Of a DNA stretch of 64,000 bases, positions 24,442 to 31,038 are shown one piece after another. The notes under the pieces were generated by a model. That model was not told where the DNA came from, ran no database searches, and saw nothing but the letters and a program-made list of their open reading frames with translations. This DNA comes from Escherichia phage LF82-41. Every line of letters begins with the position of its first letter. Position 1 is the first letter of the stretch. The stretch lies in the sequence record PV660463; one strand, given 5' to 3'. Position numbers and translations under genes: made by a program.

Positions 24442-25569
24442 ATGGAAAAATTTATGGCTAAGTTTGGACAAGGATACGTCCAAACGCCATTTTTATCGGA
24501 AAGCAATTCAGTACGATTTAAATTAAGCATAGCGGGCTCTTGTCCGCTATCAACATCTCCTGCTTATATTAAGTTCCAGGATAATCCACTTGGGTCCCAG
24601 GTTTTTTCTGTTGGATTAAACGTTCGTGTAATAAATCCTACAACAGGTGCAGTAGTTGAATCTAAGTCATATAATTTCTCTACTGAAAACGACGCCACGT
24701 CAAGTGCATTTGTTACTTTCATGGACACATACGCTTCAAATTTTATATTTGCTCTTGTTACTAACGCTAAAACAAACTTTCCGCCAGAAGTTCTTGCATG
24801 GTTTACCAAAGCTGGGAGTTCTGCTATTCCATTAGCTCAACAAGTTTTAAATATAGTGGACATTTCTTATTCGGCATTTTATATTTCTGGTAAGAATGCT
24901 ATAGCGCTAGAACATATTAAGTATAGTAATAAGAAAACTTCAACCGACTATAGTACACCACTTGATGTTGTGTACGACACGATCGATGATATTGGTGCGA
25001 CCGGCTTCCCTAGACGTACGTATGAATCGACAGACACATTTTTATCTGCTGTTGGAGGTACTAATAACGAAATTAAAAGGATGCCTACAACATCCATTAT
25101 TACACCTCTCGCTGGGTATAAATTGAAGCCTGGAGATTTCCTTTATATGAAATTCCAACTAATGGCTGATGCCGATTTGTTAGCACAAGGGACGACACGA
25201 CTTTCTATTCGTTTCTTTAAATCTCCTTCTACTTCACCTATTTCATTTAAGGATACAAACTTTGATGGGGCTGCAGGTGAATGGAAGATATATGAAGACT
25301 ACATAGAAATTCCTGCTGGTGCTGACGGGTTCACGATTTATTGTTATCGTACAGCTCCAGTCGGGCAAGGTGGATTAAGAAACGTTATATTCACTGAAGT
25401 ATCATGTAATGGAAGCGTTTCAAAACCTGCTGAGTTTGGTATAAATGGTATTCGTGTAAATTATGTTTCAGAATCTTTAAGTGCTCCAGACATAATGACA
25501 TTACCTACTCAATCTTCAACTGATACTGGTAAGGTATTTGGACAAGAATTTAAAGAAGCATCAGAATAA
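24442..25569 (+). CDS. 35: long tail fibre hinge connector gp35
   Basis: 375 aa; operon position. Confidence 0.9.
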   Translation: MEKFMAKFGQGYVQTPFLSESNSVRFKLSIAGSCPLSTSPAYIKFQDNPLGSQVFSVGLNVRVINPTTGAVVESKSYNFSTENDATSSAFVTFMDTYASNFIFALVTNAKTNFPPEVLAWFTKAGSSAIPLAQQVLNIVDISYSAFYISGKNAIALEHIKYSNKKTSTDYSTPLDVVYDTIDDIGATGFPRRTYESTDTFLSAVGGTNNEIKRMPTTSIITPLAGYKLKPGDFLYMKFQLMADADLLAQGTTRLSIRFFKSPSTSPISFKDTNFDGAAGEWKIYEDYIEIPAGADGFTIYCYRTAPVGQGGLRNVIFTEVSCNGSVSKPAEFGINGIRVNYVSESLSAPDIMTLPTQSSTDTGKVFGQEFKEASE

Positions 25570-25574
25570 ATTTA

Positions 25575-25592
25575 GGGAGACTTCGGTCTCCC
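25575..25592 (+). terminator. hairpin after gene 35 (terminator / RNA-stability element)
   Basis: GGGAGAC-TTCG-GTCTCCC then ATTTTTG. Confidence 0.55.
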
Positions 25593-25599
25593 ATTTTTG

Positions 25600-25607
25600 T
25601 ATAAATA
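25600..25607 (+). promoter_or_regulatory. late promoter (TATAAATA) for gene 36
   Basis: Exact TATAAATA 24 nt upstream of gene 36 ATG, just after a hairpin. Confidence 0.75.
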
Positions 25608-25631
25608 TGGTATACATATAAGGAGACAACT

Positions 25632-26297
25632 ATGGCCGATTTAAAAGCTGGTAGTACAACTGGCGGTGCCGTTATATGGCATCAAGGTAATTTCCCTTTA
25701 ATGCCAGCAGGTGATGACGTCCTGTATAAAACGTTTAAACTCTATTCAGAATATAATAAACCAAAAGCGGCTGATAACGATTTCGTTTCTAAAGCTAATG
25801 GTGGTACGTATGCATCAAAGGTAACATTTAACGGCGGCGTTCAAGTCCCGTATGCTGTAAACAACACAAACCCGTGCGGTATTTATCCAGGTAACGGTGA
25901 TAATGCTACTTTTGCTGTAGCAAATATCGATATTGTTTCATGGAATGGTATTGGTTTTAAATCATCGCAAGGTTCAGCAGCCCGAACTGTTGTAATTAAT
26001 GCACGTAATGGTGATATTAATACAAAAGGTGTTGTGTCTGCGGCAGGTCAAGTAAGAAGTGATGCAGCTGCTCCTATAGCAGCGAATGACCTTACTAGAA
26101 AGGACTATGTTGATGGACGAATAAATATTGTTACGGATAACGCAAATTCCCGTGTATTGCGTAAAGGCGATACCATGACTGGTACTTTAACAGCACCAAA
26201 CTTTTTCTCACAGAATCCGGCGTCTGAGGCTAATCATGTTCCTCGTTTCGACCAGATTGTAATTAAAGATTCTGTTCAAGATTTCGGCTATTATTAA
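25632..26297 (+). CDS. 36: long tail fibre distal connector gp36
   Basis: 221 aa as T4 gp36; own late promoter at 25600-25607. Confidence 0.9.
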
Positions 26298-26305
26298 GAG
26301 GACTT

Positions 26306-29300
26306 ATGGCTACATTAAAACAGATACAATTTAAAAGAAGCAAAGTAGCAGGAGTTAATCCTACTGCAGCACAATTAGCCGAAGGCGAATTAGCGATAAA
26401 CTTAAAAGATCGAACTCTTTTTACTAAAGACGACCTCGGTAATATTATTAGCCTAGGCTTTGCTAAGGGCGGGCAAGTTGACGGCAACGTTACTATTAAC
26501 GGACTTTTGAGATTAAATGGCGATTATGTACAAACAGGTGGAATGACTGTAAACGGACCAATTGGTTCTACTGACGGCGTAACTGCAAAAGTTTTCAGAT
26601 CTACACAGGGTTCGTTTTATACAAGAGCATCAAACGATACTGCAAATGCTCATTTATGGTTTGAAAATACAAATGGATCAGAACGTGGCGTTTTATATTC
26701 AAAACCACAGTCTGAAAATGAAGGCGTAATTACAATGCGTGTTCGTCAAGGAACCGCTGCGGGAGCTCAAAATTCAGAATTTCATTTCATTTCTACTGAT
26801 GGCGGTATCTTCCAGGCACGTAAGTTAACTGCTTTAACTTCTATTAGTACACCAACTATTAGTGTTAATTTAATTAATCATGATTCTAAATCATTTGGAC
26901 AATACGATTCACAATCATTAGTTAACTATGTATACCCAGGCACCGGTGAAACGAATGGTGTAAACTATCTTCGTAGAGTTCGTGCCAAATCCGGTGGTAC
27001 AATGTATCATGAAATTGCTACTGCACAAACAGACCAGGCTGATGAAGTTTCTTGGTGGTCTGGTAATACACCATCATTTAAATTATATGGTATTCGTAAT
27101 GACGGCCGAATGATCGTCCGCAATAGCGTAGCCATCGGGACCGTGACTGCAGGATACCCGTCAAGCGACTATGGTAATGGTGCCGCTTTAGGATTCGGTG
27201 TTTATTTAGCTCTAGGCGATAACGGGACGGGGCTATCATACAAAAAAACCGGTGTTTATGATTTAGTTGGCGGTGGATATTCTGTTGCTTCTATTACTCC
27301 TGACAGTTTACGTAGTACTCGTAAAGGTATATTTGGTCGTTCCGAGGACCAAGGCGCATCGTGGATAATGCCTGGAATTAACGCGGCATTATTAAGCGTT
27401 CAAACACAAGCAGATAATAACAATGCAGGTGACGGCCAAACCCATATTGGTTATAATTCCGGCGGGAAAATGTCTCACTATTTTCGTGGCGCTGGCCTGA
27501 TGAATATCAACACCCAACAAGGTATGGAAGTCAATCCAGGTGTTTTAAAATTGACTACTGGTCCTAATAATGTTATATTTTATGCTGATGGGGGCATTAC
27601 ATCAACTAAGCAACTTTCAGTTTATAACGGTGTTTATTTAGCGGCTAATAACTCTACAGCAGGTTTAACTTTTGCACCTACAACTACTATTGACGGCACT
27701 AAGCAAATTCTCTGGGAAGGCGGTACTCGCGCAGGACAGAACAAAAGTTATGTGACCATGAAAGCATGGGGTAACTCATTTAATGCCACCGGTGATAAAG
27801 CTCGTGAAACAGTATTTGAGGTTTCTGATGGACAAGGTTATTATTTCTATTCTCAACGCGTAGCTCCGACTGGTTCTGAAACTACTGGTCCTGTTATAAC
27901 TCAGTTCAATGGGCAAGTTAATGCTAATGGAAGTATTAATACCGCAGGAAGTCTTAAAGTTGATGGGCTAAGCACTTTAACCGGCAACGTTACCATGAAT
28001 AACGGTTTGTTTGTTCAAGGTGGGGCCTCAATTACAGGACAGGTTAAAATCGGTGGAACTGCAGATGCCTTCCGTATTTACAATGCGGAATATGGAGCTA
28101 TTTTCCGTCGTTCTGAAGCGGCATTGCATATTATCCCTACACTTAAAGATGCAGGTGAAAGTGGTGGTATTTCTAACCTTCGTCCATTGAGTATTTCTCT
28201 TAACAACGGAATGGTTCAAATGCGTCATTCTGTTACATTGGGTGATGATGGCGCTGGCGGTAATATGGTCACCGTAGACAATGATACAAAACTCGTTGTG
28301 TTGACCACCAATTCGCGTATAAGTCCTAATTTCCGTATGCAAATAGGACAATCGGCATATATCGACGCTGAATGTACTGATACTGCACGACCTGCTGGAG
28401 CTGGTTCATTTGTCTCGCAAAATAATGAAAATGTTCGTGCCCCATTCTACATGAATATTAATCGTACAGATACAAGTACTTACGTTCCTATTTTGAAACA
28501 ACGATATGTCCAGGGCGATAGTTGTTATTCTTTGGGTACATTAATTAGTACGGGTGATTTTAGAATTCACTATCATGAAGGCGGTGATAATGATTCAACA
28601 GGTCCACAAAAGGCGGATTTAGCATGGCAATTTAGACGTGATGGCTCGTTCCGTTCACCTAATAAAATTGAAATTAATACCGTTATAATTGGTACTGATG
28701 GTAATATCACAGGTGGTACTGGTAACTTTGCTAACCTAAATACGACGATAAATAGTCTTAAGACGGATATCATCTCTAGTTATCCGATTGGTGCTCCGAT
28801 TCCATGGCCAACTGATACACCTCCTGTGGGTTATGCTATTATGGAAGGCCAGACGTTTGATACTGACTTGTATCCTAAGTTAGCTGCGGTGTATACTTCA
28901 GGAACTATTCCTGATATGCGTGGACAAACTATTAAAGGTAAACCGAGTGGTCGTGCAGTGTTGAGTACAGAAGCAGATGGTGTTAAATCTCATACCCATA
29001 GTGCTTCTTCTAACTCGGTTGATCTAGGTACAAAAACGACGTCAAGTTTTGACTATGGTACTAAGACGACAAGTAGTTTCGACTACGGTACTAAAACGAG
29101 TAATAATACTGGTGCGCATACACATAGTCTGAGCGGTTCCACAAACTCAACCGGCGCTCATGCTCACACAGATGGTTTAAGGATGAACAGTAGTGGTTGG
29201 AGCCAATACGGAACAGTAACCATTCCGGCAAGTGTATCCACGGTTAAAGGAACCAACCAGCAGGGAGCTGGTTATTGTTCGAAAACAGACAGTCAGGGCA

Positions 29301-29515
29301 ACCACAGTCACTCTTTATCTGGTACTGCTGCAAGTGCAGGAGCACATGCACATACAGTCGGTATAGGTGCTCATACACATACAGTCGGTATAGGTGCTCA
29401 CACGCATACAGTCGCTTTAGGTTCACATAGTCACACAATAACAGTTAACGCAACAGGTAATACAGAGAACACCGTTAAAAACGTTGCATTTAACTATATC
29501 GTTCGTTTAGCTTAA
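26306..29515 (+). CDS. 37: long tail fibre distal subunit gp37 (receptor-recognising)
   Basis: 1069 aa; C-terminal HxH metal-binding repeats (GAHTHS, GAHAHT, HSHS). Confidence 0.93.
29028..29101 (+). repeat. 30-nt tandem coding repeat in gene 37 ([10 protein letters not shown] x2.4)
   Basis: ggtac(a/t)aa(a/g)acga...gactat(/c) units seen directly. Confidence 0.8.
29341..29435 (+). repeat. 27-nt tandem coding repeat in gene 37 (GAHTHTVGI x3.5, HxH metal-binding boxes)
   Basis: gctca(t/c)ac(a/g)catacagtcggtataggt units seen directly. Confidence 0.8.
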
Positions 29516-29520
29516 GGAGA

Positions 29521-29534
29521 GGGCCTTCGGGCCC
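29521..29534 (+). terminator. hairpin between genes 37 and 38
   Basis: GGGCC-TTCG-GGCCC then TTTA. Confidence 0.45.
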
Positions 29535-29543
29535 TTTATAATA

Positions 29544-30095
29544 ATGAAAATTTACCACTACTATTTTGACACTAAAGAATTTTATAAAGAAGAAACATAT
29601 AAACCTGTTAAAGGCGTTGGACTCCCGGCGCATTCTACAACTAAAAAACCACTTGATCCTAAAGAAGGATATGCGATTGTTTTTGACGAACTCATTCAAG
29701 ATTGGATTTATGAAGAAGATCATCGCGGTAAACTAGCTTGGACCTTCGATAAACAACCCGTTAAAATTGATAGTATAGGAAGCTTACAGGGTGCAACATT
29801 TGATGAGCCTGGCGAGTTTGATCTTTGGATAGATGGCGGCTGGAAAGAGGATGAGTGTTATAAACGTTTGACTCTTAGAAATAGAAAACTTGATCAACTT
29901 TTTAAAGAGTACCAAGTCTTGTCTAATTTGGTTGAAGCTTCTGTTGCAAATAAAGACGAGAAATTCTATTACCAGAATCTTAAACGTTTCTTTGCTCTTT
30001 ATGAAAAGCATGAGCATTTAGGTGGCGAATTCCCGGCATGGCCAGAAAAAGAACGAAAATCATTTTTTAAAAGAGTGATAAATATCTTCAGATAA
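29544..30095 (+). CDS. 38: tail-fibre assembly chaperone gp38 (T4-type, not adhesin-type)
   Basis: 183 aa; N-terminus MKIYHYYFDTKEFYKEE matches T4 gp38 as recalled. Confidence 0.92.
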   Translation: MKIYHYYFDTKEFYKEETYKPVKGVGLPAHSTTKKPLDPKEGYAIVFDELIQDWIYEEDHRGKLAWTFDKQPVKIDSIGSLQGATFDEPGEFDLWIDGGWKEDECYKRLTLRNRKLDQLFKEYQVLSNLVEASVANKDEKFYYQNLKRFFALYEKHEHLGGEFPAWPEKERKSFFKRVINIFR

Positions 30096-30105
30096 AGGAG
30101 GTATT

Positions 30106-30765
30106 ATGGCAACACCAAAAGTGTCATTTTCGCCTAGTGATATTCTATTTGGGTTGCTAGATCGTATTTTCAAAGATAACGCTACTGGAAAGGTTTTAAT
30201 GTCCCGAGTAGCGGTAATTATTCTTTTGTTCCTAATGGCACTAATATGGTACAAAGGAAGTATTTTGCTGGATTATTATGTAAGATCTAAGTATGATACT
30301 TATACTGAAATAATCCAAAAAGAACGAGCTTTACGTTTTGAATCTGCGGCTCTAGAACAACTGCAAATAGTTCATATCTCTTCCGGTGCAGATTTTAGTG
30401 CTGTGTATTCTTTCAGACCTAAAAACTTAAATTATTTCGTCGACCTTATAGCTTATGAAGGCAAACTGCCTAGCACAATTTCTGAAAAGTCCCTTGGTGG
30501 ATTCCCAGTAGATAAAACGGCCAATGAATATATAATTCATTTAAGTGGCCGTCATTTCTCGTCTAAATCAGAATTTGCATTTTTGCCTACAAAATCTAAG
30601 ACTGCCGAACTTTCTTATATGTATAGTTGTCCATACTTTAATTTGGATAACATCTACGCTGGAACTGTGACGATGTATTGGTATAAGGGGAGTAATATAC
30701 TTGAGGAAGATCGCTTAGCGGCTATATGCAACCAAGCGGTCCGAATACTAGGAAGGGCTAAATAA
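30106..30765 (+). CDS. t: holin
   Basis: 219 aa; single N-terminal TMD; high similarity to recalled T4 T. Confidence 0.95.
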   Translation: MATPKVSFSPSDILFGLLDRIFKDNATGKVLMSRVAVIILLFLMALIWYKGSILLDYYVRSKYDTYTEIIQKERALRFESAALEQLQIVHISSGADFSAVYSFRPKNLNYFVDLIAYEGKLPSTISEKSLGGFPVDKTANEYIIHLSGRHFSSKSEFAFLPTKSKTAELSYMYSCPYFNLDNIYAGTVTMYWYKGSNILEEDRLAAICNQAVRILGRAK

Positions 30766-31038
30766 TTAGTTGTTAGAATACATCGCTAAATGACGATAAA
30801 TATTTTCAAAACCTTCATTGAATTCACTAATCAGTGTTTTCTTTTCTTCGGCAGTTAAATTTGTAATTAGTTTTCTGAACGAATTCTGATTTAGCTGCCG
30901 ACCATCTTTTTTAATTCCAATCTCATTCAAGAATCCGATGAAACTTGCTCGGTCTTCAACAATATCTTCCCTAGAGAATTTAATCAAAATAGAAGCAATA
31001 GTAATAATTTCACGTACAATTTCAATATCTTTATTCAT
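30766..31038 (-). CDS. asiA: anti-sigma70 factor AsiA
   Basis: 90 aa; MNKDIEIVREIITIASILIKFSREDIVE matches T4 AsiA as recalled. Confidence 0.93.
   Translation of the reverse strand: MNKDIEIVREIITIASILIKFSREDIVEDRASFIGFLNEIGIKKDGRQLNQNSFRKLITNLTAEEKKTLISEFNEGFENIYRHLAMYSNN

What the first reader, a model, noticed from the sequence alone, without database searches (positions are those of the whole stretch)
28950..29515. Distal tail-fibre tip: dense HxH repeats, two tandem coding repeats and a very short inter-repeat head region
The C-terminus of gp37 contains at least 10 His-x-His boxes (metal-coordinating needle motif in T4 gp37) arranged partly as perfect 27-nt and 30-nt tandem DNA repeats, with only about 45 residues ([42 protein letters not shown]) between the two His-box clusters. 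Gp38 is the T4-type chaperone (183 aa), so receptor specificity should reside in this compact gp37 tip. Tandem repeats make the locus prone to slippage/recombination and rapid host-range variation.
Basis: partly seen in the sequence, partly recalled or inferred. Interest (0 to 1): 0.45.

Follow-up and report, generated by a model that had tools for sequence, protein, structure and literature searches.

The report
Lambda-type receptor tip on T-even fibre
This is the ordinary receptor-binding end of a T4-like phage's long tail fibre, carrying the same tip type as phage lambda's side fibres; its repeats are old structural building blocks of a metal-stapled needle, not unstable DNA repeats.

Summary
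The region is the C-terminal tip of gp37 (window 26306-29515, 1069 aa) of a Mosigvirus-like T-even phage, followed by a T4-type gp38 chaperone. It aligns end to end with the solved T4 gp37 tip (2XGF, E 3e-90). There are 8 HxH boxes, not 10 or more. The DNA repeats are not perfect: 22/30 nt for the 30-nt pair, and 25/27 then 19-20/27 nt for the 27-nt units. The 45-residue stretch between the His-box clusters is longer than T4's 34 and mid-range for the family (30-67). The tip is closest to ESCO47 gp37 (93% aa), siphovirus 9g (84%) and lambda Stf (80%), all with the same repeat architecture, so OmpC is the likeliest receptor by inference. Among 191 unique tips, the number of 10-aa units on the outgoing arm and of 9-aa HxH units on the returning arm change together (n9 = n10+1, and 14-aa units are equal on both arms) in 188. 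Only one sequence truly departs from this. The repeats are therefore length-matched rungs of the hairpin needle, with 8 predicted metal sites against T4's 7. Host-range variation lies in the head cassette, which is swapped between the conserved His boxes. This is a new allele of a well-known kind, of low to moderate interest.

The parts
26306..29515 (+). gene 37, distal long-tail-fibre subunit (1069 aa). It is mosaic: 26306-26494 is ~90% nt identical to Mosigvirus FP43; 26500-27690 resembles T4 (78%) but not ESCO47 or FP43; 27692 onward is 89% identical to ESCO47.
   Evidence: 69% aa to T4 gp37 over the full length; exact sequence is a singleton cluster from a Logan assembly
28790..28933 (+). 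collar/knob domain (aa 829-876), Pfam Collar PF07484
   Evidence: E 9e-11; aligned to 2XGF
28988..29167 (+). outgoing (up) arm of the needle stem, aa 895-954, 60 aa. It is equivalent to T4 882-931 (50 aa) plus one extra 10-aa unit, and carries HxH boxes 1-3 (aa 896, 938, 952).
   Evidence: T4 domain limits from PMC9603124
29027..29086 (+). two 30-nt units, each encoding [10 protein letters not shown] (aa 908-917 and 918-927), followed by a partial GTK. They are 22/30 nt identical. T4 has one such unit.
29168..29284 (+). head / tip subdomain (aa 955-993, 39 aa, [39 protein letters not shown]). It is the predicted receptor-binding surface and belongs to the lambda-Stf head family.
   Evidence: 0.96 to ESCO47, 0.84 to 9g, 0.76 to lambda; unrelated to T4's head; T4 tip 932-959
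29138..29344 (+). variable cassette at the DNA level. FP43, TuIb and ATK47 lose homology here (29161-29308 for GiZh). Only ESCO47, 9g, lambda and L005 match across it. The breakpoints fall in the His boxes and 14-aa units.
29285..29461 (+). returning (down) arm of the needle stem, aa 994-1052, 59 aa. It is equivalent to T4 960-1009 (50 aa) plus one extra 9-aa unit, and carries HxH boxes 4-8 (aa 1000, 1014, 1023, 1032, 1041).
29354..29434 (+). three 27-nt units: [27 protein letters not shown] (aa 1017-1043). Units 1 and 2 are 25/27 nt identical with a 20-nt exact repeat. T4 has two such units.
29462..29512 (+). C-terminal strand [17 protein letters not shown], which returns into the knob (T4 1010-1026)
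29514..29543 (+). gene 38 translation-initiation region: SD AAGGAG (29514-29519) and a hairpin (29518-29537) that brings the SD next to the ATG at 29544
   Evidence: compensatory changes in T4, TuIb, FP43; -14.2 kcal/mol; known for T4 gene 38
29544..30095 (+). gene 38, T4-type tail-fibre assembly chaperone (183 aa), not an adhesin
   Evidence: same 90% cluster as ESCO47 'distal long tail fiber assembly catalyst'

Best explanation

Structure (inferred by homology). Each chain of the trimer leaves the collar/knob, runs out as an extended strand, forms a small intertwined head, and runs back to the knob. This gives a six-stranded needle. Every HxH box from the three chains coordinates one metal ion on the axis. 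The window version has 8 boxes, so 8 metal sites are predicted per fibre against T4's 7.

Repeats (shown from sequence). The 'tandem repeats' are the rungs of this needle. 10-aa [10 protein letters not shown] units on the outgoing arm lie opposite 9-aa (T/S)V(G/A)IGxHxH units on the returning arm, and 14-aa HxHSLSGTxxSxGA units lie on both arms next to the head. Because the two arms must stay in register, unit numbers change only in matched pairs. The window, like lambda Stf, TuIb and many others, is one rung longer than T4 (stems of 60 and 59 aa against 50 and 50).

Receptor (inferred). Specificity resides in the 39-45-aa head. Here the head is of the lambda-Stf family, 76-80% identical to lambda, so the most likely receptor is OmpC. 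The substitutions may shift allele preference or add glycan binding.

Assembly (gene presence shown, function inferred). gp38 is the T4-type folding chaperone and is not part of the virion.

Evolution (shown as mosaic homology). Host range changes by recombination that swaps the head cassette between the conserved His-box flanks, across myo-, sipho- and prophage backgrounds. It does not change by repeat-number slippage.
For: Homology. The 2XGF chain matches end to end, E 3e-90. Identity to T4 gp37 is 69% over the full length, with only three indels in the tip. Collar and Phage_fiber Pfam hits are present.

Architecture. There are 8 HxH boxes with intervals [42,14 | head | 14,9,9,9] against T4's [32,14 | head | 14,9,9]. 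The same architecture is found in ESCO47, 9g, lambda, TuIb, ATK47, GiZh and PhiZZ6.

Matched-arm rule. It was derived on 84 unique tips and then tested on 12 diverse phages and on an independent set of 50%-identity cluster representatives. In the combined set, 188 of 191 unique complete tips obey n9 = n10+1 and n14up = n14down, across 11 architecture classes with n10 = 0 to 5 and n14 = 0 to 2. One sequence has both 14-aa units shortened to 12. Two of the three 'exceptions' are parsing artefacts.

T4 structure from the literature. Stems of 50 and 50 aa; the chain goes out and turns back, with both termini in the knob (PMC9603124). Seven iron ions lie in the needle, and the His residues are essential (PMC6957217).

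Head family.. Lambda Stf binds OmpC (PMC12617516).

Chaperone..

Cassette boundaries.. Conservation is 0.73-0.76 in the arms against 0.28 in the head.

Age of the repeats..
Against: No trimer structure could be computed. The monomer AF2 model was uninformative (pLDDT 51, pTM 0.22), so the spatial pairing of 10-aa and 9-aa units is inferred from counts plus published T4 geometry, not observed.

The surveyed tips are phylogenetically related, so 188/191 overstates the number of independent events. The conservative count is about 10 architecture transitions.

The receptor assignment rests only on 76-80% head identity to lambda Stf. T4 itself uses OmpC with an unrelated head. Ur-lambda fibres may also engage O16 O-antigen (PMC11990801). 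ESCO47, the closest relative, has no receptor data and a narrow host range.

L014 shows that a single-arm variant can at least be assembled from reads.
Confidence: 0.82

Rival explanations
1. One reading: the 27-nt and 30-nt tandem repeats form a hypermutable (contingency-like) tract. Frequent slippage changes repeat number within phage populations and so changes host range quickly.
For: The 27-nt array holds a 20-nt exact direct repeat at 27-nt spacing, which is a plausible slippage substrate. One metagenomic T-even gp37 (L014) has exactly one 27-nt unit missing relative to TuIb and ATK47, with an otherwise intact 37-38-t locus. In the window, D1 and D2 share lineage-specific codons (25/27 to each other against 19-24/27 to orthologous units), hinting at some intragenic homogenisation.
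Against: The 30-nt units are only 73% identical, with TCA/AGT serine codon differences, and are closer to their orthologues than to each other. Repeat numbers are identical across tips that are 16-46% divergent in protein sequence. 188/191 tips keep the arms matched, so single slippage events appear to be selected against. The variable part is the head, not the repeat number. No read-level data were available to test heterogeneity directly.
Confidence: 0.08
2. The tip is of the lambda-Stf architecture but recognises something other than OmpC, such as LPS core, an O-antigen or another porin. In that case the head substitutions relative to lambda (11 of 45 positions) define a new specificity.
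For: Head positions differ from lambda at TD/TS, V/A, PA/TG, V/L, NQ/ST, AG/IA, C/L and N/S. The family includes LPS binders such as phiNP ORF6, which binds Glc-II of the core (PMC9659904). Ur-lambda fibres may use unmodified O16 antigen. In T4, point changes in the tip shift LPS and OmpC use (Table 1 of PMC9603124).
Against: The head is the same length as lambda's and 76-80% identical to it, with conserved blocks ([27 protein letters not shown]). Lambda Stf-OmpC binding is established.
Confidence: 0.3
3. Specificity is carried by gp38 acting as a tip adhesin (T2/T6/S16 type), with the gp37 C-terminus serving only as its dock.
For: Gene order 37-38-t is the same in both types.
Against: The protein is 183 aa, 76% identical to T4 gp38 over 178 aa, homologous to lambda Tfa and matches phrog_105 'tail fiber assembly'. 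gp37 has the complete T4/lambda-type needle and head that T2-type gp37 proteins lack.
Confidence: 0.02

Closest known systems
Phage lambda (Ur-lambda) side tail fibre Stf, C-terminal ~215 aa (orf-314), with Tfa
   Same: The repeat architecture is identical: two FDY units, 8 HxH boxes with intervals [42,14|45-aa gap|14,9,9,9], and the same C-terminal strand. The last 191 aa are 80% identical, and the heads are the same length and 76% identical. A chaperone gene lies immediately downstream.
   Different: Here the tip is fused to a ~800-aa T-even gp37 shaft on a contractile-tailed Mosigvirus-like phage. The chaperone is T4 gp38-like (29% identity to Tfa). There are 11 substitutions in the head, including a Cys (GYCSK against AYLSK).
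T4 gp37 receptor-binding tip (PDB 2XGF)
   Same: The knob, needle and head plan is the same, with 69% identity over the whole protein. The collar, HxH boxes and C-terminal strand are conserved. The gp38 chaperone is 76% identical.
   Different: T4 is one rung shorter: one FDY unit, two 9-aa intervals, 7 HxH boxes and 7 Fe. Its head is unrelated in sequence and 11 aa shorter (28 against 39 aa in the tip subdomain).
gp37 of Mosigvirus vB_EcoM_ESCO47, and the side tail fibre of siphovirus 9g (Nonagvirus)
   Same: These are the closest tips: 93% and 84% aa identity (92.5% and 81.7% nt), with the same architecture and head family.
   Different: ESCO47 gp37 diverges from the window upstream of 27692. 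Its first 9-aa unit is NVAVGAHTH rather than TVGIGAHTH, and both its FDY units read GTKTSSSFDY. In 9g the tip sits on a siphovirus lateral fibre with a Tfa-type chaperone.
TuIb, ATK47, GiZh and PhiZZ6 gp37 tips
   Same: They have the same 8-HxH scaffold and ~77-81% nt identity in both arms.
   Different: Their head cassettes are unrelated and 34-52 aa long. From memory of Montag et al. 1990, which I did not verify here, TuIb uses OmpC.

Membership tests
T4 gp37 / lambda Stf-type receptor-binding fibre tip | Full-length sequence homology to the solved tip (2XGF), including the collar/knob domain | tested here: met
   E 3.3e-90, query 1-271 against chain 2-242. PF07484 Collar, 42 bits (cut-off 24).
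T4 gp37 / lambda Stf-type receptor-binding fibre tip | HxH boxes on both sides of a variable head, with conserved 14-aa and 9-aa spacing, and the C-terminal strand NTENTVKN(I/V)AFNYIVRLA | tested here: met
   intervals [42,14|head|14,9,9,9]; the C-terminal 26 aa are conserved
T4 gp37 / lambda Stf-type receptor-binding fibre tip | Intertwined homotrimer with axial metal ions, each coordinated by six His | not testable with these tools
   Only monomer prediction is available, and the model was of low confidence (pLDDT 51). The property of T4 is taken from PMC6957217.
T4 gp37 / lambda Stf-type receptor-binding fibre tip | Dedicated gp38/Tfa-family chaperone encoded immediately downstream | tested here: met
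   76% to T4 gp38; 29% to lambda Tfa, E 1e-13; phrog_105. Functional dependence was not tested.
Lambda-Stf head subtype (OmpC-binding) | Head sequence homologous and co-linear with the lambda Stf head | tested here: met
   same 45-aa inter-box length, 76% identity to lambda. Nine other members were found (ESCO47, 9g, L005-L011, P0002).
Lambda-Stf head subtype (OmpC-binding) | Binds E. coli OmpC | not testable with these tools
   Known for lambda Stf (PMC12617516). No data exist for this allele or for ESCO47.
T2/T6/S16-type gp38 adhesin system | gp38 of ~250-260 aa with glycine-rich motifs and hypervariable segments, bound to the gp37 tip | tested here: not met
   183 aa, 76% identical to the T4 chaperone gp38; no other Pfam domain.
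Slippage-prone (contingency-type) coding tandem repeat | Near-identical DNA units, and repeat-number polymorphism among close relatives | tested here: not met
   30-nt units are 73% identical and closer to orthologous units than to each other. The repeat number is the same in all eight 8-HxH phage tips examined. 188/191 tips keep the arms matched. Partial exceptions: a 20-nt exact repeat in the 27-nt array and the L014 deletion. Within-population heterogeneity was not testable.
Programmed tail-fibre diversification (DGR or invertible segment) | Template repeat elsewhere, or inverted repeats flanking the variable region | tested here: not met
   no second copy of the tip DNA in the 64-kb window; only one weak 18-nt inverted pair in 25500-31000, and it does not flank the tip.

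The most novel reading that the evidence does not exclude
The needle of T4/lambda-type fibre tips may be a modular ruler. Rungs (a 10-aa unit paired with a 9-aa HxH unit, and 14-aa units paired with each other) are added or removed only as matched pairs, giving needles from about 4 to at least 10 metal layers. Single-arm intermediates such as L014, which could arise by slippage at the 20-nt exact repeat present in this window, may be viable and may alter how the head is presented. That would make stem length a second axis of host-range tuning, for example reach through O-antigen or capsule, alongside the head sequence.
Probability: 0.12. Interest if true: 0.45.

Novelty: new member of a known kind. 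Interest (0 to 1): 0.22.

Why it matters
For annotation, this locus should be read as a T4-type system (gp37 as adhesin, gp38 as chaperone) carrying a lambda-Stf-type head, so OmpC is the first receptor to test. It is another clear case of one receptor-binding cassette shared among T-even myoviruses, a Nonagvirus siphovirus and lambdoid prophages.

For fibre engineering, the matched-arm rule (n9 = n10+1, equal 14-aa units) has practical use. Chimeras should be joined in the His boxes next to the head, or must carry both arms from the same donor. If not, the needle goes out of register. The rule also predicts the number of bound metal ions from sequence alone.

None of this overturns current understanding.

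Tried and rejected
1. AF2 (ColabFold, monomer, 53-sequence alignment) of aa 799-1069 gave mean pLDDT 51 and pTM 0.22. That is too poor for fold search or contact analysis, so no fold search was run. A trimer cannot be submitted with the tool.
2. The original structure paper (Bartual et al. 2010, tried as PMC2996694) is not held. Domain limits and the iron count were taken from PMC9603124 and PMC6957217 instead.
3. My first automatic parse took the largest HxH gap as the head. This mis-assigned tips whose H1-H2 stretch exceeds the head, so I re-parsed them.
4. I looked for a DGR-like second copy of the tip or flanking inverted repeats and found none.
5. I looked for receptor data on the closest relative, ESCO47. 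Only a narrow host range is reported.
6. I considered the antisense ORF 29244..29438 (64 aa). I rejected it as a by-product of the repetitive coding strand, since it has no independent support.
7. I looked for a near-identical public gp37. The exact sequence is a singleton from a Logan assembly, and the best named hit is 92.5% nt over the tip only.
Full report
WHAT IS THERE

The finding lies in the last 190 codons of a 1069-aa ORF (26306..29515, +). Upstream are genes for gp34, gp35 and gp36 homologues. Downstream are a 183-aa ORF (29544..30095) and holin t (30106..30765). Over 20 kb the window is 93-95% identical to Mosigvirus genomes such as ATK47, mar005P1 and FP43. The ORF is 69% identical to T4 gp37 over its full length. 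Its last 271 aa match the solved T4 tip (2XGF) end to end with E 3e-90. The exact protein is a singleton in the 15-billion-protein collection and comes from a Logan assembly.

CHECKING THE OBSERVATION

- The tip has 8 HxH boxes (aa 896, 938, 952 | 1000, 1014, 1023, 1032, 1041), not 10 or more. All 16 His residues in the last 190 aa are in these boxes.
- Two tandem arrays exist (TRF: period 30 at 29019-29099, 78% matches; period 27 at 29338-29429, 84% matches), but neither is perfect.
- The two [10 protein letters not shown] units are 22/30 nt identical.
- The three 9-aa units are 25/27 and 19-20/27 nt identical. The longest exact repeat is 20 nt.
It is longer than T4's 34 aa and mid-range for the family (30-67 aa).
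- With T4's published domain limits (stem 882-931 and 960-1009, tip 932-959; PMC9603124), the window has stems of 60 and 59 aa and a tip subdomain of 39 aa. T4 has 50, 50 and 28.
- The 183-aa protein is 76% identical to T4 gp38, 29% to lambda Tfa, and hits phrog_105 'tail fiber assembly'.

NEAREST RELATIVES

The tip is not especially T4-like. By tblastn, the last 191 aa are:
- 93% identical to gp37 of Mosigvirus ESCO47;
- 84% identical to the side tail fibre of siphovirus 9g;
- 80% identical to lambda Stf (orf-314);
- only 54-66% identical to T4 and TuIb.

All four lambda-type tips share exactly the same repeat numbers and a co-linear 45-aa head region.

At the DNA level, other T-even phages (FP43, TuIb, ATK47, GiZh) match both arms at 77-81% but lose homology across 29138-29344 (29161-29308 for GiZh). 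Only ESCO47, 9g, lambda and an IMG/VR prophage (L005) match through the head. The head is therefore a cassette bounded by the conserved His-box units. It has moved between myovirus, siphovirus and prophage fibres. This fits the T4/lambda RBP family described in PMC9659904.

WHAT THE REPEATS ARE

I measured the spacing between successive HxH boxes in every complete homologous tip I could collect. The sources were 80 IMG/VR loci, 120 proteins from the word-indexed search, 16 phage records and 145 cluster representatives from an exhaustive HMMER scan.

In the first 84 unique tips, six architectures appeared. A simple rule fitted all but one:
- the number of 9-aa HxH intervals on the returning arm equals the number of 10-aa FDY-type units on the outgoing arm plus one;
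- the number of 14-aa units is the same on both arms.

I then tested the rule on sequences not used to derive it.
- Twelve diverse phages conformed, with Felixounavirus Ro111lw built somewhat differently.
- 112 of 114 parsed representatives conformed. The other two had simply lost box 2, which misled the parser.
- 15 sequences the parser had skipped all conformed on inspection.

In the combined set, 188 of 191 unique complete tips obey both rules. They fall into 11 architecture classes with n10 from 0 to 5 and n14 from 0 to 2. One protein has both 14-aa units shortened to 12.

In T4, each chain runs from the knob to the head and back, with equal 50-aa stems and seven axial irons held by the HxH boxes. 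The natural reading is that these units are rungs of a hairpin needle that must stay in register. The window, like lambda Stf and TuIb, is one rung and one predicted metal site longer than T4. The spatial pairing itself is inferred. The only structure prediction available, a monomer, was of low confidence (pLDDT 51).

ARE THE REPEATS UNSTABLE?

The evidence is mostly against this.
- The two 30-nt units differ at eight synonymous positions, including TCA versus AGT serine codons.
- Window unit 2 is 29/30 nt identical to unit 2 of GiZh and L005, and 27/30 to TuIb's, but only 22/30 to window unit 1. The duplication is therefore old and each copy evolves in place.
- Repeat numbers are constant among tips that differ by up to about 45% in protein sequence.
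- No DGR template or invertible segment is present.

Two points go the other way.
- The first two 27-nt units share a 20-nt exact repeat and lineage-specific codons.
- One metagenomic T-even gp37 (L014) has a clean 27-nt deletion of one unit relative to TuIb and ATK47, in an otherwise intact 37-38-t locus. That is the expected slippage product, or an assembly artefact. Its rarity (1 in 191) suggests such single-arm variants are selected against.

Population-level heterogeneity could not be tested.

FUNCTION

By homology with T4 and lambda, the head is the receptor-binding surface. In T4, alanine scanning maps essential residues to the tip subdomain and its flanking His residues. Lambda Stf binds OmpC. 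The window head is 76% identical to lambda's and the same length.

OmpC is therefore the leading candidate, at roughly even odds. LPS core or O-antigen recognition is the alternative, because other family members bind LPS (phiNP) and Ur-lambda fibres may also use unmodified O16 antigen. ESCO47 offers no receptor data.

VERDICT

This is a real and correctly located feature. The allele is new, being a lambda-type head on a mosaic Mosigvirus gp37. The matched-arm rule is a tidy and useful regularity that I did not find stated in the papers searched. It follows naturally from the known T4 structure.

Scores: interest about 0.22; novelty 'new member of a known kind'.

Noticed in passing
window 29514-29544: The Shine-Dalgarno AAGGAG of gene 38 lies 24 nt from the ATG. 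A GC-rich UUCG hairpin between them (29518-29537, -14.2 kcal/mol) would bring the two together. The stem is kept by compensatory changes in T4 and TuIb (GGGGC/GCCCC) and in FP43 (GGGAC/GTCCC). This is the known 'split SD' of T4 gene 38 (PMC3014915).
   Followed up: yes
L002 (phage 9g, KJ419279.1 55479-56086) against window 28908-29502: A Nonagvirus siphovirus side tail fibre carries essentially the same tip (81% nt, 84% aa), closer than any T-even phage except ESCO47. This indicates fairly recent cassette exchange across tail morphotypes.
   Followed up: partly
L014 (IMGVR_UViG_3300030021_000020), tip near locus 2100-2310: This is the only real exception to the matched-arm rule. It is a T-even gp37 with two FDY units but only two 9-aa intervals, caused by a clean 27-nt deletion relative to TuIb and ATK47. 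Genes 38 and t downstream are intact. It could be a natural slippage variant or an assembly artefact.
   Followed up: partly
window 26306-29515: gp37 is a three-part mosaic. The N-terminus is ~90% identical to FP43. The middle (26500-27690) is alignable to T4 (78%) but not to ESCO47 or FP43. The last third, plus genes 38 and t, is 89% identical to ESCO47.
   Followed up: partly
window 29270-29272 (aa 989): The head contains a single Cys (GYCSK), shared with ESCO47 and 9g, where lambda and its prophage relatives have Leu. In a trimer, three such Cys could lie near the axis. The significance is unknown.
   Followed up: no
P0218, P0240, P0176, P0216 (cluster representatives): These are extreme needle architectures. 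P0218 has no FDY unit but two 14-aa pairs. P0240 has 14-aa units shortened to 12 on both arms. P0176 and P0216 have 4-5 FDY units with 5-6 nine-aa intervals (10 and 9 HxH boxes respectively).
   Followed up: partly
L095 (Felixounavirus Ro111lw tail fibre): This related tip has a different collar region, an extra HxH 11 aa upstream of box 1, and a 13-aa final interval, so it does not fit the simple counting scheme cleanly.
   Followed up: no
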